Shown in pieces: positions 7,168 to 14,429 of a DNA stretch of 17,046 nucleotides; positions within the stretch are counted from its first letter, which is position 1, and every line of letters starts with the position of its first letter. Below the pieces are notes generated by a model, which had not been told where the DNA came from, searched no databases, and was given only the letters and a program-made list of their open reading frames with translations. This stretch comes from a virus (taxonomy: Duplodnaviria; Heunggongvirae; Uroviricota; Caudoviricetes), in the IMG/VR virus record IMGVR_UViG_2651869780_000020, positions 1-17,046 of that record; one strand, 5' to 3'. A program made the translations under genes and the position numbers.

Positions 7168-8574
7168 ATGGCTACTTGGCAAGGAACAAATGGCGGATTG
7201 TTGGCTGGTATCGGTGGTGTCAACTCAAACGCTCCGAGCGTAAATGACATCGGCAATACGCTTCAGCTTATCAGACAGAACAATGATATTGAGCGTTCAG
7301 GCGCTAACAATGTTGGGCTGACTGCTTTGCAAGGTCTTTCAGGTATTGCGGGGGTGTTTCAGCAGGAAAAGCAGGCTCAGCGGCAGAAAGAATTTCAGCA
7401 GGCATACGCTAATGCTTATGCGTCTGGTGATCGCGGTGCTTTGCGTCAGTTGGCTACTCAATATCCAGACCAGATTGAATCCGTTCGTAAAGGCATGGGA
7501 TTCATTGACGAAGACCAGCGCAATTCTATCGGCACCTTAGCGGCTGGCGCACGCCTTGCGGCCTCGTCTCCAGAAGCAATGCAATCATGGCTGCAAAACA
7601 ACGCCAAGGAACTGGCGCGCGTCGGTGTTGACCCTAATAACGTTGCTCAGATGTATCAGCAGAATCCTTCAGGATTTGGTGAGTTTGTTGATCACCTTGG
7701 GATGGCTGCGCTTGGTCCGATTGATTACTTCAATGTTCAGGACAAGATGGCTGGTCGTGAGATTGACCGAGGCAGACTGGCAGAGACAATCCGCAGCAAT
7801 CAGGCTGGAGAAGCACTTCAGGCGAGAGGGCAAAACCTTTCCTATCAGTCAGCAATGACTGGGCACAATATCGCAGCACAACGCTTGGCTCTGGATCAGC
7901 AAGAGTTCGGGTTTAAGATGCAGCAAGCGCAGGAAAAGGCTCAGCAGTTGATTAGCGAAGCACCTAAGCTGTCAGTAAACATGGAAAAAGGCATCGAGAC
8001 GGCTGTAAACAATGCTACAGCATCATCAAACTCAGCCAATTCTATGAGTGCGCTTGCTCAACAGTTCAGAGCAGAAAAACCAACGACAGGTTTGTTCGGT
8101 AACGCACAGAACATGTTCGCAAAACTTACCGGAAGCGATACAACATTGCGTGATTTGCGCATCCGCCAAAATGCCCTTGTTAACAGTCAGGTTCTTAAAT
8201 TCCTACCTCCAGGCCCCGCAACGGATAAAGACGTTGAGATCGTTCGGCAGGGTGCACCAACTGACATGGATAACCCTGAGACGGTCGCAAGATGGCTTGA
8301 TGCGATGGCAAACCTTGAGCGACGAAACGCGCAGTTTAATGAGTTTAAAGCCGAGTGGATGAGCGCGAATGGCAATCCAGGACAATCGCGTAATGGCGGT
8401 CAGATATTGGGGTTGGATGTTAAAAAAGGTGAATCATTGGGGAGTGCCGTTAAGCGGTATATGTCAATGAATACTGACGCAGCGCCAGCACAAGATTCGA
8501 CACCTTCAGGAGAACCACGGAATCAGGTTGGATCATATACCTCAAAATCAGGCATTCAATTTACGGTGGAATGA
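7168..8574 (+). CDS. Ejection (injection) protein, P22 gp20-like
   Basis: 468 aa versus about 471 aa for P22 gp20; syntenic; RBS aagggg. Stop overlaps the next start (ATGA at 8571-8574). Confidence 0.8.
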
Positions 8575-10697
8575 TGAAAGTAACTGCAAACGGTAAGACA
8601 TTTACCTTCCCTGATGGTACGAGCACGGAAGATATTGGCACCGCCATTGATGAGTATTTTGCTGGTCAGGCTGTTCAGCAACAAACAGTTAATCAGGCCA
8701 ATAATGAACCAGCACGTGAAGAACCATCATTGATGCAACAAGCTGGCGATTGGCTCACAGGTGGTCAAAGTGCAGGGCAAATTGCAGAGCAGGCTGGTCG
8801 TGGTCTGGTAAACATACCATTTGACGTATTGCAGGGTGGCGCAAGTCTGATTAATGCAATCAGCCAGGGGCTTGGTGGCCCCAAGGTTTTGGATGATGTT
8901 TATCGCCCTGTCGATCGACCGACAGACCGTTGGGCGCAAGCCGGTGAAACATTTGGTGGGTATCTCCTGCCAATTGGCACAGCGGCAAAAGCTGCTGGAG
9001 CGACAGCAAAGCTCGCAGGAGACATCGGTTCCGCAGGAAACATGATTGCAGGTTCTCTTGCTGATGCTGCAAATCAGAAGGGTGATTTTGCACAAAATGC
9101 TGCCATTAACGGTGGTATCAATATTGGTGCTCAAGGCGTTCTTTCAGGTGTCGGGCGCGTTATTGCGCCAAGGGTTTCACAGGCTCTTGGTGGTGCAGCA
9201 CTGAATTCTGCTAATGATGTTTCCAGGATGGCAAAGTCAGGTGCTGGGCGTCAGTCAATTGCCAGTCAGGCCGCTAATGTGTCCGAAGATGTAGCAAAAG
9301 CGGCTGAGTCTGCTGGAATTGATATAAACGCATTAACACCAGGAATGCGATCTGGAAGTCGTGGAATTGCACAAGCCGAAGGCGCATTGGCATCAACACC
9401 AGGAATTGTTCAGGACGCCCATCAGGCAGCATTTAACGAAATATCATCAAAGTTAAGTCGAAACCTTGATGAATTTGGGGCCGCATCTGGAACGGCATCA
9501 GAAAAAAGTGCGGCTATAAAACAAAGGATTCTTCAAAATCTTGAACAGATGAAGGATGCCGAGCGCGCGGCATGGGATGACGTGCGGTCAACAATGCCAA
9601 ATCAAAAAGCAAGAATGCTAAATGGTAATGCCGTTATTCAGGCAGAGCGATCTGCTGGCATACCGCTTACTCCTGAAATGAAACAGTTTGTTCAGGCAAA
9701 CAATCAAGGTGGAGTAACATTTGATGGCATGAAAGCATGGAGAGCGAAATTTGCTGATGCGGAGCAAAAATATAAGCGTAGCGGAGAGGCAAATGCGGCA
9801 AGGAGAGCAGGGGAAATACGCCGGGCAATTACTGATGATATGCGCACAATGGCGGAAAACGGCGGATTTCTTGATGACTGGCAGAAAGCTAATGATCTGT
9901 CTAAAGCGAGGTTATCAGCACAAGAGAGTGCAGAGTCTGTTTTCGGGCGTGATTTGGCAACAGATGCACTGATTACGAATGGAGTAAAATCCCTTCAATC
10001 ATCGTCAGCTAAAGGTCTTAATGGCCCTGCTGGGTTCCATTCTATGATCCGCGCGCTGCCAGAATCAGAGCGTGTTCCTGCTATATCATCAATGTTGCAA
10101 GACGCTATCTCGCATGGTGTACGTGGTGGCAAAGCTGATGCAGCAGGAATTAACCATATCGCAGGGATACTTACCCCACAAAATGTAAAAGCCATTAGCA
10201 GATATTCCTCAGAACTCGGAAGAATTGCTGATGCATATGGCACTCTTGCAAGAGCAGCAGTGAAACCTCAGCAGTATATTGAAAGAACAGGGAGAACTGC
10301 CAATGTACTACGCGATCTGGATGCTGGTTTATCCAACGTCACATCAACAGTGTTAAATGCAATTGCCAACTCAACATCAGGTGCCATTGTTGGTGGCGCT
10401 GGAGGGGGTATTGCAGGCGCTGCCGCGGGTGCTTTAGTTGGCGCTGGGTTAAAAGGCGCTGTATCTAAAATTGCCACCACACGTAGTGGCCGATATGCGA
10501 TAGAGAAAGCTGTTCAGGAAGCCACCAAAGCAGTAAGAGCAGGCGGAAGTAAAGAAGCATTAGCGGCTGCGGAACGCAGATTTATGGCAAATAAGGCCGC
10601 CGTAAAAGCAATACGCGAGGCACTAGGAAACGAAGAGTTCCAGCGTTTAGCAAGAGCTGGAATTGTGGCATCGCTAAGCGGAATGGCACAGGAGTAA
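8571..10697 (+). CDS. Ejection (injection) protein, P22 gp16-like
   Basis: 708 aa, last and largest of the three ejection proteins. Gly/Ala-rich segments. Translationally coupled to gp20. Longer than P22 gp16 (about 609 aa as recalled). Confidence 0.8.
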
Positions 10698-11102
10698 TTA
10701 GTCATCCATGGATGGATTGAGCTTATCTCGTGTTGATGTGGCAATTTTCCCAACATTTTTCAACCAAGATTTTAAGAAGGATATGTCGTCCTTAATATCA
10801 TGAATATCCTCATTCTTTATACGATCAACCTTATCCTCTAAGCTCTCTATAGAACGCTCAATGCTAGACAGAGAGATTTTTAAGTCCCCTTGCTCACGTT
10901 CCAGTGAGGATTTGAGAGCACAATATTCGTTTTCTAGAATTCCTATTTTTTTTGTTAGAGAGTGCATTCGATACTCATACACCAAACCAGAAACGACTAA
11001 TGCAGCCAACAGAAACCATTCAAGCACACCAACCTCCTTAGTTTTGAGCAGGATACCAGATGATAATGTGTAGTTGGAGTAGCGCGGTTGTAATGCAAGC
11101 AT
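10698..11102 (-). CDS. Hypothetical membrane-anchored coiled-coil protein (candidate superinfection-exclusion function, P22 sieA position)
   Basis: 134 aa. One predicted transmembrane helix (LEWFLLAALVVSGLVYEY) followed by a heptad-rich charged segment (LENEYCALKSSLEREQGDLKISLSSIERSIESLEDKVDRIKNEDIHDIKDDISFLKSW). AT-rich. Convergent with gp16 with abutting stop codons (TAATTA at 10695-10700). No obvious SD sequence. No family recognised. Confidence 0.55.
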   Translation of the reverse strand: MLALQPRYSNYTLSSGILLKTKEVGVLEWFLLAALVVSGLVYEYRMHSLTKKIGILENEYCALKSSLEREQGDLKISLSSIERSIESLEDKVDRIKNEDIHDIKDDISFLKSWLKNVGKIATSTRDKLNPSMDD

Positions 11103-11182
11103 TTTGTTTTAGTTTTATGCTTGCTTGTATGTGTGTACAGTGTATATAATGCAAGCATACATCACAACAAAGGTGCTTGCAT
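11093..11182. repeat. Four copies of a 9-10 bp near-palindromic motif in alternating orientation: ATGCAAGCAT (11093-11102), ATGCTTGC (11117-11124), ATGCAAGCAT (11149-11158), TGCTTGCAT (11174-11182)
   Basis: Read directly from the sequence. The copies form two imperfect inverted-repeat units of about 32 bp, spaced about 56 bp apart. Copy 1 overlaps the start codon of the - strand membrane protein; copy 2 overlaps the -35; copy 3 abuts the -10; copy 4 lies between the RBS and the ATG of the 322-aa gene. Confidence 0.6.
11121..11150 (+). promoter_or_regulatory. Sigma70-like promoter for the 322-aa accessory gene
   Basis: TTGCTT (11121-11126), 18-bp spacer, TATAAT (11145-11150); RBS aggtg at 11171-11175; ATG at 11184. 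Confidence 0.55.
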
Positions 11183-11183
11183 T

Positions 11184-12152
11184 ATGACTGAAAAGAAAAG
11201 TGGCGAAGGGAAAGCTAAGGGCGGGATCGCTCGCGCAAAGTCGCTGACTAAAGAGCAGCGTTCTGAAATAGCAAAGAAAGCAGCTGCTGCAAGATGGAAA
11301 AGTAAGATTCTCAGGGCAACTCATCGTGGTAACTTTTTAGATGATTTTGGCATTGATGCTGAATGTTATGTACTGGATGACGAGTCGAAAACTGTCGTTG
11401 TTACGAAAACTGGATTATCTCAGTTGCTAGGGATTGGTGAACATGCCAGGGATTTAGATCAACTGCTTGGCGCTCAGTATATGAGCAAATACCGAGATCT
11501 AGAATTGCAGCGAAAAATGGAAAATCCCTATAAATTTCAACTTACTTCGAAGTCTAAAACCGTTCATCAAGCGTTAGGTTATGACATTACAGCAATTGTT
11601 GATATTGGTAGGGCACTAATAGAAGCCAAAGATAATGACGATCTACCACAATCACGGTTAAAGGCAGCCGCCGCAGCACAGAGACTTATTAATGCCTCCG
11701 CTAAGGCGGGAATTAAGGGGGTTGCGTATGCGCTTGCTGGTTATCGTCCAGAAGTTCAGGCTGTCATTGACGAGTTCAAAGCGTTTGTTCGTGAAGAGGC
11801 TCGTCAATATGAAAAGGAATTTCCAGATGAGCTATACGAGGAGTGGTATCGACTGTACGGCCTGAATAGGCCAGAGAAAGGACGGCCTATTCGTTTTGGG
11901 CAGCTAACCAACATGCAGATATACACCCCGCTAGCAAAGAGTAAAGGTAAAATCCTTGAACAGATTCGAGCCAGCCGAGACGAGAACGGAAAACAATCTG
12001 ATAAGTTGCATCTGTTCCTTTCTGAAATTGGTGTCAAGGCTTTGCGTCAGCATATCGGTAAGCTTCTTGGTGTCGCAGCGATGAGTGAGACAAGAGAAGA
12101 ATACGAAAAAGGAATAGAAAAGGTTTTCGGAAGAATGAAACCAGAAATCTAA
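11184..12152 (+). CDS. Hypothetical 322-aa accessory (moron) protein with a basic N-terminal helix-turn-helix-like motif; function unknown
   Basis: Long ORF with its own promoter and a strong terminator. The TTG start at 11121 in the ORF track is rejected in favour of ATG 11184 (MTEKKSGEGKAKGGIARAKSLTKEQRSEIAKKAAAARW..). The remainder is a charged, helical-looking domain. Not part of the conserved P22 structural set. Confidence 0.75.
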   Translation: MTEKKSGEGKAKGGIARAKSLTKEQRSEIAKKAAAARWKSKILRATHRGNFLDDFGIDAECYVLDDESKTVVVTKTGLSQLLGIGEHARDLDQLLGAQYMSKYRDLELQRKMENPYKFQLTSKSKTVHQALGYDITAIVDIGRALIEAKDNDDLPQSRLKAAAAAQRLINASAKAGIKGVAYALAGYRPEVQAVIDEFKAFVREEARQYEKEFPDELYEEWYRLYGLNRPEKGRPIRFGQLTNMQIYTPLAKSKGKILEQIRASRDENGKQSDKLHLFLSEIGVKALRQHIGKLLGVAAMSETREEYEKGIEKVFGRMKPEI

Positions 12153-12157
12153 TTATG

Positions 12158-12183
12158 AAACCCACCGTCAGGTGGGTTTTTTG
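12158..12183. terminator. Intrinsic terminator, probably bidirectional
   Basis: aaacccacc (12158-12166), loop gtca, ggtgggttt (12171-12179), T-run to 12183; A-rich on the upstream side. Lies between the convergent 322-aa gene (+) and the 67-aa gene (-). Confidence 0.8.
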
Positions 12184-12198
12184 TTGGAGATAAAATGG

Positions 12199-12402
12199 TT
12201 AACCAAATCGATCCTTAAAGCGCCTATCGCTGTTGCGTCTCTCCATTTTACTGTTGCAGTACGGACAAAGATGCTGTTTCTTTCCATCGATAGTCCATGT
12301 GAAGTACTTTTTCTTAAATCCAGCACCACAGATATCGCAACTTCTTGGTTTAAACATACTGGCTATGAAGATAAGAACAACAAATCCTATGATCCATTCC
12401 AT
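12199..12402 (-). CDS. Small membrane-anchored zinc-ribbon protein (67 aa)
   Basis: N-terminal hydrophobic helix (EWIIGFVVLIFIASMF) followed by CDIC..(19 aa)..CPYC, i.e. four Cys in a C-x2-C...C-x2-C arrangement, and a basic tail. Ends just before the bidirectional terminator. Confidence 0.5.
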   Translation of the reverse strand: MEWIIGFVVLIFIASMFKPRSCDICGAGFKKKYFTWTIDGKKQHLCPYCNSKMERRNSDRRFKDRFG

Positions 12403-12543
12403 ATCATGTACCTGTTTTAACTTTATTTTTTGATTTTTAGGGATTAATCAGAAACTTTATCTTGCGATTAAGCAAAGCTACTAGCTAACAAAAGAGTGCG
12501 TATACAATCAATCGTTTCACATCAACCTCAACAAGGAGAAATC

Positions 12544-12729
12544 ATGACCATAGAAGAACGCCTGAACAACATTGAGTTGAACCAAACCCTGCTTGACCAG
12601 CGACTTTCAGATCTTGAGCTTAAAGATCTTGATGCGCAAATATCAGAAGCAGAAGCCAAGCTCTCCAGCTTAAACCACCGCAAGAAGCAAATCCGCAACA
12701 GAATTACTCAGGGACGCGGAAGCTGTTGA
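12544..12729 (+). CDS. Small coiled-coil protein (61 aa)
   Basis: ATG 12544 preceded by a strong SD AAGGAG (12533-12538) at 5-nt spacing; the GTG at 12496 in the ORF track is rejected. Sequence MTIEERLNNIELNQTLLDQRLSDLELKDLDAQISEAEAKL.. is heptad-like. The 3' end overlaps the convergent 69-aa ORF by 26 nt. Confidence 0.5.
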   Translation: MTIEERLNNIELNQTLLDQRLSDLELKDLDAQISEAEAKLSSLNHRKKQIRNRITQGRGSC

Positions 12730-12913
12730 GGTGGGATGCTAGGTCTCTATCGTTAAAATCAAGGCTGCTAATCATTTCATTGTAAATGGCGTTTTTATCT
12801 TCCATTGGCAGTCTTGAGTAAACCAGACACAGAGCATATTTCAGGGAGTTTAGCTCTTTCTCTAGCTCTTCCTTGCTTGACGTTGTTGACTTAATAAACT
12901 GTTTTTTATTCAT
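12704..12913 (-). CDS. Hypothetical 69-aa protein, translationally coupled downstream of mnt
   Basis: On the - strand its ATG overlaps the mnt TGA stop (ATGA at 12910-12913). No recognisable family. Confidence 0.45.
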   Translation of the reverse strand: MNKKQFIKSTTSSKEELEKELNSLKYALCLVYSRLPMEDKNAIYNEMISSLDFNDRDLASHLNSFRVPE

Positions 12914-13161
12914 TTTGCATCCTTACCATACATGGTCTTTAGCGTCTCAACATCGTGTTCAAGATCTATCAATCGTGATGCTATAGTTGCAAGGTCTAGT
13001 GCTTGAATGTGTTTATTTTTTTCGGTCCACGCTTCAAGTGCCGCGACCATCTCAGCATTTAATGAACGAGAATTAGCCTCAGCCAGTTCAATAAGACGTT
13101 CCTTTATCTCTACAGGAAGCCTCAGATTCACTTGAGGGTTTTTGTACTTACGATCAGACAT
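12910..13161 (-). CDS. mnt: Mnt-like ribbon-helix-helix repressor (Arc/MetJ superfamily)
   Basis: 83 aa, the same length as P22 Mnt as recalled. N-terminus ..NLRLPVEIKERLIELAEANSRSLNAEMVAALEAW matches the RHH beta-strand/helix pattern of P22 Mnt (..FRMPMEVREKLKFRAEANGRSMNSELLQIV..). Divergent from arc. Confidence 0.8.
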   Translation of the reverse strand: MSDRKYKNPQVNLRLPVEIKERLIELAEANSRSLNAEMVAALEAWTEKNKHIQALDLATIASRLIDLEHDVETLKTMYGKDAK

Positions 13162-13266: not shown

Positions 13267-13407
13267 ATGAAGGTAAAAACACTGCGTATGCCAGAGAAGC
13301 TAGAAAAAATTCTTGAAGAAAAAGCAAAGGAAGAGTGTCGCTCATTCAGCGCAGAAGTAATTAAACGGGTGCTGGACAGCCTGAGGAGAGAGGGGATAAC
13401 GGTGTGA
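13267..13407 (+). CDS. arc: Arc-like ribbon-helix-helix repressor (46 aa; below the ORF-track size cutoff)
   Basis: Own translation: MKVKTLRMPEKLEKILEEKAKEECRSFSAEVIKRVLDSLRREGITV. The segment RSFSAEVIKRVLDSLRREG resembles P22 Arc RSVNSEIYQRVMESFKKEG as recalled. SD GGAGG at 13256-13260. Sits between mnt and ant as in P22 immI. Confidence 0.75.
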   Translation: MKVKTLRMPEKLEKILEEKAKEECRSFSAEVIKRVLDSLRREGITV

Positions 13408-13423: not shown

Positions 13424-13472
13424 AAAGAAATCAAAACAGTGAAGCCCCAACTGCGGGAACAGTCAGGGCTTC
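13424..13472 (-). terminator. Intrinsic terminator oriented for leftward (- strand) transcription in the arc-ant spacer
   Basis: Stem GAAGCCC (13441-13447) / GGGCTTC (13466-13472) with an inner ACTG/CAGT helix. On the - strand it is followed by ACUGUUUUGAUUUCUUU (complement of 13424-13440). No U-run follows it on the + strand. Confidence 0.55.
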
Positions 13473-13505
13473 GGTATCGTAAAACCACGCATAGGAATTA
13501 ACGAC
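13424..13505 (-). ncRNA. Predicted sar-like small antisense RNA, complementary to the ant ribosome-binding site
   Basis: Inferred from a - strand promoter inside the ant 5' end (see 13512-13540) plus the - strand terminator at 13424-13472. The predicted transcript of about 80 nt is antisense to the ant SD (agga 13493-13496) and start region, analogous to the P22 Sar RNA. Ends are approximate. Confidence 0.4.
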
Positions 13506-14429
13506 ATGAAAAGTATAGCAACAGCAGTATCTACTATCAATGTACCATTCCACGGCGCAGAGCTTTATGTTGTCAATCACAACGGCGAACCGTATACCCC
13601 AATGAAACCTATCGTTGAGGGAATGGGGCTAGACTGGAAATCTCAACATAAGAAGATTTCTCAACGCTTCTCGAAGGGTATGGTGGAAATCACCATACCT
13701 TCTGCCGGTGGGGTGCAAGCCATGATTTGTATGGCTTTACGAAAATTGGCAGCTTGGTTGAACAGCATCAGTCCTAACAAAGTCCGCCCTGAAATCCGCG
13801 ACAAGGAAATCCAGTATCAGGAAGAGTGTGACGATGTGCTCTACGAGTACTGGACTAAAGGCCATGTAGTTAACCCACGCAAAGCTAAAAAGGCGTTGCC
13901 GGGTAAAATCACCACTGAACAGCAGGAAGCCATTAAACAACTCGTCATGAGTCGCGGTCAGTCTCTGCCAAAAGAAAAACAGGCTAAGGCGATGATCACC
14001 ATGTGGTCGTCACTGAAATCTCATTTTGGGTGTTCATACAAAGAAATCAGCGATGAGCAGTTTACCGAAGCTCTGTCACTTGCAGCTCGCGTTCCGCTTG
14101 AAGGCGAGTTAATCGGCAAACAAGAGAAGAAAGCAAACGAGCTTTCTGCAAAAGAAGCAAACAGCCTTGTATGGTTATGGGATTATGCCAACCGCTCACA
14201 GGCATTATTCCGCGAACTGTATCCGGCGCTAAAACAAATTCAATCGAACTATTCCGGCAGATGTCATGACTGCGGTTATGAGTTCTCCCGTATTATCGAT
14301 ATGGCGAGAGATGTTTTAATCAACCATACACGAGATGTTGATATTAATGAGCCAGACGGACCAACGAATCTTTCCGCATGGATGAGACTTAAGAATAAAG
14401 AATTACCTCCTTCAGTACATAACTACTGA
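13506..14429 (+). CDS. ant: Antirepressor (Ant-like)
   Basis: 307 aa versus about 300 aa for P22 Ant. Located directly downstream of arc. N-terminal pattern (..VPFHGAELYVV..GEPYTPMKPIVEGMGLDWKSQHKKI..) is reminiscent of phage antirepressor N-terminal domains. Followed by a terminator. Confidence 0.7.
   Translation: MKSIATAVSTINVPFHGAELYVVNHNGEPYTPMKPIVEGMGLDWKSQHKKISQRFSKGMVEITIPSAGGVQAMICMALRKLAAWLNSISPNKVRPEIRDKEIQYQEECDDVLYEYWTKGHVVNPRKAKKALPGKITTEQQEAIKQLVMSRGQSLPKEKQAKAMITMWSSLKSHFGCSYKEISDEQFTEALSLAARVPLEGELIGKQEKKANELSAKEANSLVWLWDYANRSQALFRELYPALKQIQSNYSGRCHDCGYEFSRIIDMARDVLINHTRDVDINEPDGPTNLSAWMRLKNKELPPSVHNY
13512..13540 (-). promoter_or_regulatory. Psar-like leftward promoter inside the first codons of ant
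   Basis: On the - strand: TTGATA (complement of 13535-13540), 17-bp spacer, TATACT (complement of 13512-13517); the predicted start is near the ant ATG. Confidence 0.5.

What the first reader, a model, noticed from the sequence alone, without database searches (positions are those of the whole stretch)
11184..12152. 322-aa protein with a basic N-terminal HTH-like motif and a self-contained transcription unit
The N-terminus (KGGIARAKSLTKEQRSEIAKKAAAARW) looks like a short basic helix-turn-helix nucleic-acid-binding module, a type I recall recurring at the N-termini of diverse phage accessory proteins. It is followed by a helical, charged domain of about 280 aa with no motif I can assign (no Walker A, no obvious nuclease or toxin signature). 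The gene has a near-consensus promoter (TTGCTT-18-TATAAT), a 5' UTR carrying repeated motifs, and a textbook terminator, so it is probably expressed from the prophage independently of the late operon.
Basis: partly seen in the sequence, partly recalled or inferred. Interest (0 to 1): 0.7.

Follow-up and report, generated by a model that had tools for sequence, protein, structure and literature searches.

The report
Self-repressing BstA-related prophage cargo gene
This is a real, self-contained gene in a P22-like E. coli prophage whose protein appears to switch off its own promoter through four conserved DNA sites, and whose core is distantly related to BstA, a known prophage anti-phage protein, though its own function has never been tested.

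Summary
The 322-aa ORF (11184-12152), its promoter-like hexamers, repeats and terminator are all present. The window is a P22-like (Lederbergvirus) prophage. The gene sits between ejection gene 16 and the immI region, where P22 carries sieA.

The protein is not motif-free. It is a P63C-domain protein (PF10546, PHROG 2384, no tested function).

The repeats are four copies of TGCAAGCA/TGCTTGCA covering the -35, the -10/+1 and the start codon. The same four-site layout precedes homologues from many phyla that are only 43-52% identical. Homologues without the basic N-terminal motif lack the sites. Variant motifs come with variant palindromes.

I infer that the N-terminal two-helix module is a DNA-binding domain that autorepresses a portable one-gene cassette.

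Residues 47-201 are remotely homologous to the KilA-N-like domain of BstA, an abortive-infection protein with a cognate DNA element at its gene start (hhalign 94%). The C-terminal halves differ, and the BstA model does not match this protein.

Homologues lie just downstream of prophage repressors or inside IS1/IS1595-type insertion sequences.

Best reading: a lysogen-expressed, self-repressed, BstA-like conflict protein. Autoregulation is well supported by comparison. The defence role is inferred only.

The parts
11059..12182 (+). Whole portable cassette: operators and promoter, gene, terminator.
   Evidence: Similarity to HK620 stops at 11058 and similarity to phage 611R6 stops at 12182. The module occurs as a unit in 74 of 5426 E. 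coli genomes. Against a second E. coli prophage (L005), 11059-11258 and 12159-12182 are 96-99% identical while the core is only 45-56% identical.
11093..11102 (+). Operator-like site 1, ATGCAAGCAT (core TGCAAGCA).
   Evidence: The same site at the same relative position occurs in distant loci.
11117..11126 (+). Operator-like site 2, ATGCTTGCTT (core TGCTTGCT, one mismatch). It contains the -35 hexamer TTGCTT (11121-11126).
   Evidence: TGCTTGCT is the commonest variant of site 2 (9 of 51 distinct loci).
11145..11150 (+). -10 hexamer TATAAT. Its last T is the first base of site 3.
   Evidence: The consensus tA.aaT fused to site 3 holds across 57 distinct loci.
11149..11158 (+). Operator-like site 3, ATGCAAGCAT. 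It covers the -10 / +1 junction.
11170..11173 (+). Shine-Dalgarno AAGG, between sites 3 and 4.
   Evidence: Read from the sequence. A GGAG/AAGG element lies at this place in relatives.
11173..11182 (+). Operator-like site 4, GTGCTTGCAT (core TGCTTGCA). It abuts the start codon.
   Evidence: In most relatives the start codon overlaps this site (tgcttgcATG).
11184..12152 (+). CDS, 322 aa: P63C-domain protein, PHROG 2384.
11211..11297 (+). N-terminal basic two-helix module (aa 10-38, GG-x-ARA...L-T-x-E-x-R-x-E-I-A...ARW). Inferred to be the operator-binding domain.
   Evidence: G13, G14, R17, A30, R37 and W38 are invariant in 61 homologues. AF2 predicts helices 11-20 and 23-39. Association with the operators.
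11322..11786 (+). [quoted passage not shown]
   Evidence: hhalign probability 94.1%, E 1.3e-7, controls 0.1-0.4%. Weak Foldseek hits to Ant-N and Bro-N proteins.
11778..12041 (+). P63C domain (aa 199-286).
   Evidence: Pfam PF10546: E 6.8e-14, 52.7 bits against a cut-off of 26.1.
12157..12186 (+). Intrinsic terminator: stem 12157-12166 / 12171-12180, loop GUCA, U run.
   Evidence: (I21).

Best explanation
The locus is a portable, single-gene cassette carried as cargo by the prophage.

**Regulation.** The protein's first ~40 residues form a small basic two-helix module. I infer that this module binds four TGCAAGCA/TGCTTGCA sites lying over the gene's own -35, -10/+1 and start codon. The gene would then repress itself and be held at a steady low level whatever element carries it, which in this window is the sieA slot of a P22-like prophage.

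**Payload.** The rest of the protein has two parts. Residues 47-201 form a domain related to the KilA-N-like N-domain of BstA. The C-terminal part is a P63C helical domain. I infer that the payload works like BstA. It would be made in the lysogen and act on incoming or competing mobile DNA (abortive infection or exclusion). The operator array may double as a cognate 'self' DNA element, analogous to aba.

**Status of each step.**
- Shown: gene anatomy, family membership, conservation of the sites, the association between sites and N-terminal module, remote homology to the BstA N-domain, and the genomic contexts.
- Inferred: DNA binding by the N-terminal module and autorepression.
- Speculative: the defence phenotype and any self-immunity role of the sites.
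For: 1. **The sites are strongly enriched upstream of homologues.** In 80 genome loci whose proteins are only 43-72% identical to this one, from many phyla, the 8-mer occurs at 17.1 per kb in the 152 bp before the gene against 0.033 per kb elsewhere. The order +,-,+,- and the spacings of about 23, 31 and 24 bp are kept. The -10 is fused to site 3 and the start codon to site 4.
2. **The sites persist without other candidate binders.** They are kept in prophage copies that lack the IS transposase and the small motif protein. The only component common to all loci is this protein itself.
3. **Sites track the N-terminal motif.** 0 of 37 distinct upstream regions of motif-less homologues have an exact site, against 19 of 31 motif-bearing ones. 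Most of the rest have variant palindromes.
4. **Variant motifs pair with variant palindromes on unrelated cores.** The N-terminal form (...RW.KAGK with an N-extension) goes with ATACTTGCyCGGGCAAGTAT in Acidobacteria and in Gordonia phage Kuwabara, whose cores share only about 27% identity. The 933W homologue has a third motif type with ACGTGCA/TGCACGT repeats.
5. **Operators and module recombine as one block.** They are 98-99% identical to L005 while the core is about 50% identical. An E. coli hit covers only nt 1-241 of the module.
6. **A bona fide DNA-binding domain can replace the motif.** An XRE HTH takes its place in P0268.
7. **No sign of base pairing.** Deviations in the sites are not compensated: 13 of 17 and 19 of 25 break the putative pairs. 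This argues for protein-bound DNA rather than RNA stems.
8. **BstA link.** hhalign of the P63C family against the BstA family gives 94.1% probability, E 1.3e-7, aligning aa 47-201 with BstA 11-162. Controls give 0.1-0.4%.
9. **Shared genomic position.** ST104 orf23 and relatives lie directly downstream of cI, the position of bstA in BTP1. In Gordonia phage Kuwabara the gene follows the immunity repressor. BstA is an Abi protein with a cognate DNA element made of 29 bp upstream plus the first 34 bp of its gene (PMC8585504).
Against: - No binding, expression or phenotype data exist for any member.
- The motif-operator association could partly reflect physical linkage, because the two are adjacent, and shared ancestry.
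- The N-terminal module is predicted at only pLDDT 57-71 and matches no known DNA-binding model.
- The PADLOC BstA model does not match this protein even at E<=10. The C-terminal halves belong to different families, P63C against BstA_C PF26567.
- The repeats differ in form from aba, which has terminal direct CCCGCC repeats.
- Many homologues are cargo of IS1-like or IS1595 insertion sequences. That could point to a role in transposition rather than defence.
- Neighbours outside those ISs show no defence-island enrichment.
- Broad-family conservation is mostly hydrophobic or glycine, so no catalytic site is evident.
Confidence: 0.45

Rival explanations
1. It is a Bro/KilA/Ant-type phage regulator, either a transcription factor or an antirepressor. 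Its main job would be to control other phage or host genes, or to inactivate repressors of competing prophages. It would not be an abortive-infection protein.
For: - P63C was defined among the shuffled domains of viral regulatory proteins (Pfam PF10546 description; my own knowledge of Iyer et al. 2002, not retrieved here).
- Weak Foldseek hits go to Ant-N, Bro-N and 'regulatory protein' models.
- The gene lies beside the mnt-arc-ant immunity region.
- In 933W it neighbours roi.
Against: - In a complete related phage genome the 8-mer is clustered only at the gene's own promoter: 3 sites plus one stray in 45.9 kb.
- There is no profile similarity to the Ant N-domain (0.3-0.7%).
- There is no Pfam Bro-N or KilA-N match.
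- An antirepressor that is constitutively self-expressed in a lysogen would destabilise lysogeny.
Confidence: 0.2
2. It is primarily an accessory or regulatory factor of IS1/IS1595-family insertion sequences, for example controlling transposase expression or target choice. The prophage copies would be hitch-hikers or domesticated relics.
For: - An IS1-like DDE transposase lies divergently upstream in 37 of 80 genome loci.
- One Kaistiaceae genome holds three 99.9%-identical 2.5-kb copies bounded by 21-bp inverted repeats.
- An IS1595 transposase lies directly upstream of motif-less homologues in 11 viral-contig loci.
- In the IS1-like elements the operators sit between the transposase gene and this gene.
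Against: - The prophage copies keep an intact gene, all four sites and a terminator with no transposase and no IS ends. There is no IR match in the window.
- The gene recurs at lysogeny-expressed moron slots of unrelated phages, from E. coli to Gordonia.
- Most IS1/IS1595 elements need no such protein (general knowledge).
Confidence: 0.15
3. The repeats act in RNA, not DNA. Hairpins 1:2 and 3:4, or the alternative 2:3, would form a leader that controls translation or termination. The basic N-terminal peptide would be an RNA-binding arm.
For: - Sites 1/2 and 3/4 are inverted repeats, with 12-nt perfect arms at 11146-11157 and 11174-11185.
- Site 4 abuts the start codon, and the Shine-Dalgarno sequence lies in the would-be loop.
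Against: - The conserved -10 is fused to site 3. Transcription should therefore start inside or after site 3, and sites 1-3 would not be in the mRNA.
- Deviations from the consensus break pairing far more often than they are compensated.
- No Rfam family matches the region.
Confidence: 0.07
4. It is the toxic or effector half of an addiction (toxin-antitoxin-like) pair. The partner would be the small protein that carries the same motif at its C-terminus.
For: - A 73-100-aa convergent gene ending in GGKARA..L(T/S)..R.EIA.KAA..RW follows the gene in about 23-31 of 80 loci.
- One relative is fused to a RelB antitoxin domain.
Against: - No such partner is present in the window or in any prophage copy examined.
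- The downstream ORFs here are unrelated.
- A lone toxin gene would not persist in 74 E. coli genomes.
Confidence: 0.1

Closest known systems
BstA (prophage BTP1 abortive-infection protein with its aba self-immunity element; Owen et al. 2021, PMC8585504)
   Same: - Similar size, 307 against 322 aa.
[quoted passage not shown]
- Both are single-gene, prophage-borne, terminator-bounded units.
- Homologues of this protein occupy the very position of bstA, just downstream of cI in P22-like and lambdoid prophages.
- Both have a short cognate DNA element that overlaps the start of the gene and exists in specificity variants.
   Different: - The C-terminal half is P63C, not BstA_C (PF26567).
- The PADLOC BstA model does not match.
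- This protein has an extra N-terminal basic module that BstA lacks.
- Its DNA element is four alternating 8-mers over its own promoter, not two terminal CCCGCC direct repeats.
- bstA is thought to share the cI promoter, whereas this gene has its own.
- In this window the gene is in the sieA slot.
- No phenotype is known.
P63C domain family (Pfam PF10546, named after Myxococcus phage Mx8 p63; PHROG 2384)
   Same: It is a full member. The Pfam hit is above the gathering score, the PHROG 2384 match is full-length at E 1.7e-104, and PGAP names it 'P63C domain-containing protein'.
   Different: The family has no tested function and no solved structure. Nothing found in the searched literature mentions its operators, its N-terminal module, its link to BstA or its IS association.
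Bro-N / KilA-N / Ant-type modular regulatory proteins of phages
   Same: The layout is modular: a small beta/alpha N-domain followed by a helical C-domain. Both classes are shuffled among temperate phages. There are weak fold hits to Ant-N and Bro-N models.
   Different: No Pfam match to Bro-N, KilA-N or P22_AR_N. hhalign against the window's own Ant N-domain gives 0.3-0.7%.
Lysogeny-expressed exclusion genes in the same prophage slots (P22 sieA; lambda rexAB and BTP1 bstA downstream of cI)
   Same: It occupies the same variable 'moron' positions: between gene 16 and mnt here, and downstream of the repressor in relatives.
   Different: No sequence relationship to SieA or Rex. The protein is soluble, with no membrane segments noted in the sequence or the model. 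A shared position is only circumstantial evidence of function.
Autorepressed defence or TA regulators with operators over their own promoter (for example AbiEi, Arc/Mnt-type repressors)
   Same: Inverted repeats cover the -35, the -10 and the start of the regulator's own gene. The DNA-binding part is a small N-terminal module fused to a larger functional body.
   Different: The binding module matches no wHTH, RHH or XRE model. The operator sequence is kept across phyla, which is unusual for such systems.
Passenger genes of IS1595/IS1-family insertion sequences
   Same: Close and distant homologues lie inside such ISs, between the inverted repeats.
   Different: The window copy has no transposase or IS ends. 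I could not check in ISfinder whether this particular passenger has been described.

Membership tests
P63C domain family (PF10546 / PHROG 2384) | Match to the Pfam P63C model above its gathering score. | tested here: met
   52.7 bits against a cut-off of 26.1, E 6.8e-14, aa 199-286.
P63C domain family (PF10546 / PHROG 2384) | Full-length similarity to family members. | tested here: met
   PHROG 2384 covers aa 6-321 at E 1.7e-104. 1682 homologues were found, most of them 320-340 aa.
BstA abortive-infection family | Match to the BstA family model (PADLOC PDLC02356) and to the BstA_C domain (PF26567). | tested here: not met
   The model scores BstA(BTP1) at 1.9e-124 but gives no hit for the window protein at E<=10. 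Pfam finds only P63C. BstA relatives carry PF26567.
BstA abortive-infection family | [quoted passage not shown] | tested here: met
   Profile-profile comparison gives 94.1% probability, E 1.3e-7, aligning aa 47-201 with BstA 11-162. Reversed-sequence and Ant-N controls give 0.1-0.4%.
BstA abortive-infection family | Position directly downstream of the prophage repressor. | tested here: not met
   In the window the gene lies between gene 16 and mnt. The feature is met by homologues: ST104 orf23, L006, L009, L010, L086-094 and Kuwabara gp48.
BstA abortive-infection family | A cognate DNA element at the gene start that suppresses the protein (aba). | tested here: inconclusive
   A cognate, co-varying DNA element overlapping the start is present. 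Its form differs from aba, and its effect on the protein cannot be tested in silico.
BstA abortive-infection family | Abortive-infection phenotype and block of phage DNA replication. | not testable with these tools
   This needs phage challenge experiments.
Helix-turn-helix DNA-binding domains | Match to an HTH model, or a tri-helical HTH fold, in the N-terminus. | tested here: inconclusive
   No Pfam hit for aa 1-172 even at E<=10. AF2 predicts only two helices, 11-20 and 23-39, at pLDDT 57-71. An XRE HTH occupies the same position in P0268.
Bro-N / KilA-N / P22_AR_N (Pfam) | Sequence or profile match to these domains. | tested here: not met
   No Pfam match. hhalign against the Ant-N alignment gives 0.3-0.7%. 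Only weak fold hits, E 0.06-1.
Autorepressed single-gene cassette | Repeated operator sites overlapping the gene's own promoter, conserved together with the gene. | tested here: met
   Four sites cover the -35, the -10/+1 and the start codon. Density is 17.1 per kb against 0.033 per kb in 80 loci. 60 loci show the four-site layout.
Autorepressed single-gene cassette | The gene product binds those sites and lowers transcription. | not testable with these tools
   This is inferred from co-occurrence and co-variation only.
Type II toxin-antitoxin pair | An adjacent cognate partner gene. | tested here: not met
   No motif-bearing small gene lies beside it in the window or in the prophage copies.
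IS1/IS1595 passenger gene | Location between IS inverted repeats, next to the transposase. | tested here: not met
   The window has no IR match at <=3 mismatches and no transposase gene. The feature is met by many homologues.

The most novel reading that the evidence does not exclude
Two linked claims make up the most novel reading that the evidence does not exclude.

1. The ~28-aa GG-x-ARA...RW peptide is a previously undescribed minimal sequence-specific DNA-binding module. It has a readable code: TGCAAGCA, GGCAAGTA and TGCACGT types. Together with its four-site operator it forms a host-independent autoregulatory 'expression plug' that works from Actinobacteria to Proteobacteria.
2. The P63C proteins it drives are a very large sister family of BstA. 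They would be abortive-infection or exclusion proteins spread by prophages and by IS1/IS1595 elements, with the operator array doubling as a cognate self-immunity DNA element.
Probability: 0.3. Interest if true: 0.8.

Novelty: new variant of a known kind. Interest (0 to 1): 0.62.

Why it matters
- **A testable role for an uncharacterised family.** P63C proteins number in the thousands: 1682 clusters at 90% identity and 1363 representatives at 50%. They occur in well-known phages (933W, ST104, BP-4795) and in about 1.4% of complete E. coli genomes, yet no function has been tested. The remote link to BstA, together with a shared genomic position, gives the family its first concrete hypothesis.
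- **An unusually well-defined regulatory pair.** The same 8-bp operator, in the same four-site promoter layout, accompanies one short peptide across phyla. If that peptide binds the sites, it is among the smallest sequence-specific DNA-binding modules. The cassette would be a natural promoter unit that works in many hosts.
- **Insertion sequences as carriers.** The IS1/IS1595 association suggests that small insertion sequences spread this gene. That is relevant to how conflict genes move between genomes.

Tried and rejected
**Family and structure searches**
- PADLOC and NCBIfam scans of the protein found nothing.
- hhalign of the beta/alpha and helical parts against the window's Ant N-domain family was negative. 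I dropped 'paralogue of Ant'.
- Invariant polar residues were sought as a possible catalytic site in the 70-sequence divergent alignment. Only hydrophobic, Gly and Cys columns reach 90%. I did not pursue an enzyme reading.

**The repeats**
- RNA-structure reading: no Rfam match and no compensatory changes.
- sigma-54 or another universal host box: I considered this from memory. TTGCA resembles a -12 element, but there is no -24 GG. I rejected it without a test.
- Other targets in a related phage genome: none.
- Operator-first scan of viral contigs, meant to find unrelated motif-bearing proteins behind the same sites. It recovered only P63C genes plus roughly the number of matches I estimate chance would give. 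It therefore gave no independent test.

**Context**
- Conserved partner gene, or defence-island enrichment, outside the ISs: none.
- IS remnants in the window: none.

**Literature**
- Searches for P63C, PF10546, Mx8 p63, ISNwi1 and ISPna2 gave no functional information.
Full report
**1. What is in the window.** The window is part of a P22-like (Lederbergvirus) prophage of E. coli.
- It runs from head genes through the ejection genes: gp16 at 8571-10697.
- Next comes a small divergent hkcB-like gene at 10698-11027 (-).
- The flagged ORF follows.
- Three small ORFs follow it.
- Then comes an immI region: Mnt-like 12910-13161 (-), Arc 13267-13407, Ant 13506-14429, and sar RNA 13438-13504 (-).
- The tailspike gene lies at 14530-16569.

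The flagged ORF therefore sits where P22 carries sieA (my recollection of the P22 map, not checked here) and where HK620 carries hkcC. This is a variable accessory slot. Phage vB_EcoP-611R6 has the same gene at 99% identity in the same place, annotated 'hypothetical protein'.

**2. Checking the observation.**
- The ORF (11184-12152, 322 aa) and the quoted N-terminus are correct.
- The hexamers TTGCTT-18-TATAAT are at 11121-11150. The -10 is perfect, but the -35 is only 3/6, and the generic scan did not report the site.
- The terminator is a 10-bp stem with a U run (dG -16.4, z -4.0).
- The repeated motifs are four copies of the quasi-palindrome ATGCWWGCAT, at 11093, 11117, 11149 and 11173. They cover the -35, the -10/+1 and the start-codon region, so they are not simply in the 5' UTR.

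**3. What the protein is.**
- Pfam finds a P63C domain at aa 199-286 (E 7e-14). PHROG 2384 (function unknown) matches the full length at E 1.7e-104.
- PADLOC and NCBIfam find nothing.
- The family is very large: 1682 clusters and 1363 representatives at 50% identity.
- An AlphaFold2 model (pLDDT 79.6) shows three parts: two N-terminal helices (11-20, 23-39; lower confidence), a beta/alpha domain (43-134) and a helical region (137-315).
- No solved structure resembles it.
- Against predicted viral structures only weak hits appear. They recur on Ant-N, Bro-N and 'regulatory protein' models.
- The literature held here mentions P63C only as a label on hypothetical proteins.

**4. The repeats are a conserved operator architecture.** I fetched 80 loci encoding homologues that are 43-72% identical. 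They come from Proteobacteria, Acidobacteriota, Myxococcota, Firmicutes, Verrucomicrobiota and others.
- The same 8-mers precede the gene almost everywhere, in the same order: TGCAAGCA, TGCTTGCA, TGCAAGCA, TGCTTGCA.
- The spacings are 22-25, 31-32 and 23-25 bp.
- A TAnnAT -10 has its last T as the first base of site 3. A TTGCA -35 lies inside site 2.
- The Shine-Dalgarno sequence sits between sites 3 and 4, and the start codon overlaps site 4.
- The 8-mer density is 17.1 per kb in the 152 bp before the gene against 0.033 per kb in the rest of those loci.
- Sixty loci show the full four-site layout.
- Where a site deviates, the partner site does not compensate. Pairing is broken in 13 of 17 cases for sites 1:2 and 19 of 25 for sites 3:4.

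The conserved -10 also implies that transcription starts within or after site 3. Together these points argue for protein-bound DNA sites, not RNA stems. No Rfam family matches.

**5. Who binds the sites.** Nothing else is common to all loci. Prophage copies lack the transposase and the small protein found in the IS copies, yet keep all four sites. A universal host factor for this sequence is not known to me. The parsimonious binder is the protein itself, and several observations point to its N-terminal module.
- *Presence and absence.* Among more distant homologues from viral contigs, 0 of 37 distinct upstream regions of motif-less proteins have an exact site. 19 of 31 motif-bearing ones do, and most of the others carry variant palindromes such as TGCACGCA, TGCAAGTA or TGTTAGCA.
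- *A second specificity type.* An N-terminal variant (extra AAxxLSxxGA, then GG.ARA...RW.KAGK) goes with a contiguous palindrome, ATACTTGCyCGGGCAAGTAT. This pairing occurs in Acidobacteria, where the core is about 47% identical to the window protein. It also occurs in Gordonia phage Kuwabara gp48, whose core shares only about 27% with those and is closest to a different sub-family.
- *A third type.* The 933W homologue has another motif form with ACGTGCA/TGCACGT repeats.
- *Block exchange.* Against a second E. coli prophage, 11059-11258 is 98-99% identical, the core is 45-56% identical, and the terminator is 96-100% identical. One E. coli genome shares only nt 1-241 of the module, which ends right after W38.
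- *Domain replacement.* One relative has an XRE helix-turn-helix exactly in place of the motif.

In the complete 611R6 genome the 8-mer clusters nowhere else. The sites therefore look autoregulatory rather than part of a regulon. All of this is comparative inference, and adjacency and shared ancestry could inflate the association.

**6. Link to a characterised system.** tblastn showed homologues in well-known phages.
- ST104 orf23, together with nine IMG/VR prophages and three genome loci, lies directly downstream of cI. A terminator, the four sites and its own promoter lie between cI and the gene. The annotated start of orf23 runs through sites 3-4 and is probably 36 nt too far upstream.
- That is the position of bstA in BTP1.
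[quoted passage not shown] It has a cognate DNA self-immunity element, aba, made of 29 bp upstream plus the first 34 bp of the gene (PMC8585504).
- A profile-profile comparison of a merged P63C alignment with a BstA family alignment gives 94.1% probability (E 1.3e-7) over window aa 47-201 and BstA aa 11-162. Shared motifs include CYVLxDGTRVLSxRGxxxALG against GVLNDGTPYLTGRGLAEMCG.
- Smaller P63C alignments give 38-78%. Reversed-sequence and Ant-N controls give 0.1-0.4%.
- The C-terminal halves are different families, P63C against BstA_C PF26567, and the PADLOC BstA model does not match this protein.

The protein is therefore not a BstA family member, but it shares BstA's N-domain, size, genomic niche and the idea of a cognate DNA element at the gene start.

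**7. Other contexts.**
- In 37 of 80 genome loci an IS1-like DDE transposase lies divergently upstream.
- In one Kaistiaceae genome three 99.9%-identical 2.52-kb copies are bounded by 21-bp inverted repeats. Each contains the transposase, the P63C gene and two small genes. One of the small genes ends in the same GG-ARA...RW motif.
- Motif-less homologues follow an IS1595 transposase in 11 viral-contig loci.
- Genes outside these ISs are unrelated housekeeping genes, with no defence-island signal.
- The window copy has no IS ends.

**8. Interpretation.**
- *Best supported (about 0.7):* the locus is a portable, self-repressed one-gene cassette. Its N-terminal module reads its own four operators.
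- *Less certain (about 0.35-0.4):* the payload acts like BstA in conflicts between mobile elements, and the operators may serve as a self-recognition element.
- *Rivals:* a Bro/Ant-like regulator, an IS accessory factor, an RNA-level leader, and a toxin-antitoxin-like pair. They are weighed in their own section.

**9. Verdict.** The gene is a member of a known but uncharacterised family. New here, as far as the libraries and literature at hand show, are three things: the operator/N-module pairing conserved across phyla, the remote homology to BstA, and the IS1/IS1595 cargo status.

Noticed in passing
window 13438-13504 (-): A strong match to sar RNA (RF00262, 76.6 bits, E 1.5e-15), the antisense RNA of the P22 immI region. 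It lies between the Arc-like gene (13267-13407) and ant (13506-14429). The window therefore carries a complete mnt-arc-sar-ant immunity I region.
   Followed up: partly
window 10698-11102 (-): The hkcB-like ORF is annotated from the ATG at 11102 in phage 611R6 (405 nt). PHROG 5962 and HK620 hkcB align only from residue 26. A GTG at 11027 is preceded by a strong GGAGG. The true gene is probably 10698-11027 (109 aa, N-terminal membrane helix plus coiled coil), which would leave a 156-bp intergenic region holding the operators.
   Followed up: partly
window 11025-11080: A 56-bp stretch just upstream of hkcB is conserved (91-100%) in otherwise unrelated places of phages EC.P3, E212, phiv205-1 and JEP4. 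It coincides with the left boundary of the cassette, so it may be a recombination junction.
   Followed up: no
window 12199-12402 (-), 12541-12729 (+), 12704-12913 (-): Three small ORFs of unknown function lie between the cassette and mnt. One is a 67-aa protein with a membrane helix and a CxxC...CxxC zinc ribbon. One is a 62-aa coiled-coil protein (PHROG 7586). One is a 69-aa protein (PHROG 16466). This stretch differs from 611R6, where mnt follows the cassette directly.
   Followed up: partly
L076 2975-5493 (also L077, L079): A 2.52-kb insertion sequence is present in three 99.9%-identical copies in one Kaistiaceae genome, bounded by 21-bp inverted repeats. It carries an IS1-like transposase, a P63C gene and two small genes. 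A related right end, GGTAGTGnnTCAGTTTGAA, recurs in many phyla just upstream of the small motif-bearing gene.
   Followed up: partly
L013, L016, L021, L059, L073 and others (IS copies): A second conserved element, CTTGAGCGGT(n)A(n)GC, appears near the transposase start in one orientation and in front of the small motif-bearing gene in the other. It may be a shared promoter or a binding site of the IS.
   Followed up: no
L167 1777-2145 (Rhodobacter phage RcFrancesLouise gp45): A 122-aa protein with a C-terminal cysteine-rich (zinc-ribbon-like) part carries the same GG-ARA...ARW motif at its N-terminus. It is otherwise unrelated to P63C proteins and lies inside an operon without its own promoter region.
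   Followed up: no
L291 3417-4496 (phage ST104 orf23): The deposited start codon of orf23 (MQAHFTTKSACIM...) reads through operator sites 3 and 4. The family-consistent start is the ATG at L291 3453. The same over-extension occurs in many automatic ORF calls, which show N-termini such as ...DACM or ...SACM.
   Followed up: partly
L005 9047-9583 (-): In a second E. coli P22-like prophage, a ClpP-like protease gene (PF00574, 178 aa) sits between the P63C cassette and mnt. It is another cargo gene in the same slot.
   Followed up: no
E. coli NZ_AP027850.1 (hit H45): In this genome the module is matched in two short pieces around an IS1A transposase. The cassette appears to be interrupted by an IS1 insertion.
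   Followed up: no
P0157 (382 aa, metagenomic representative): An ABC/AAA_21-type ATPase domain (aa 41-174) is fused to a P63C domain (aa 260-343). This is either a real fusion of P63C to a defence-type ATPase or an assembly artefact.
   Followed up: no
window 16626-17000 (-): This ORF matches only the C-terminal 124 positions of PHROGs 21145 and 14022 (profiles of 201 and 441 positions). The gene probably continues beyond the right end of the window. Related phages carry O-antigen modification genes downstream of the tailspike.
   Followed up: no
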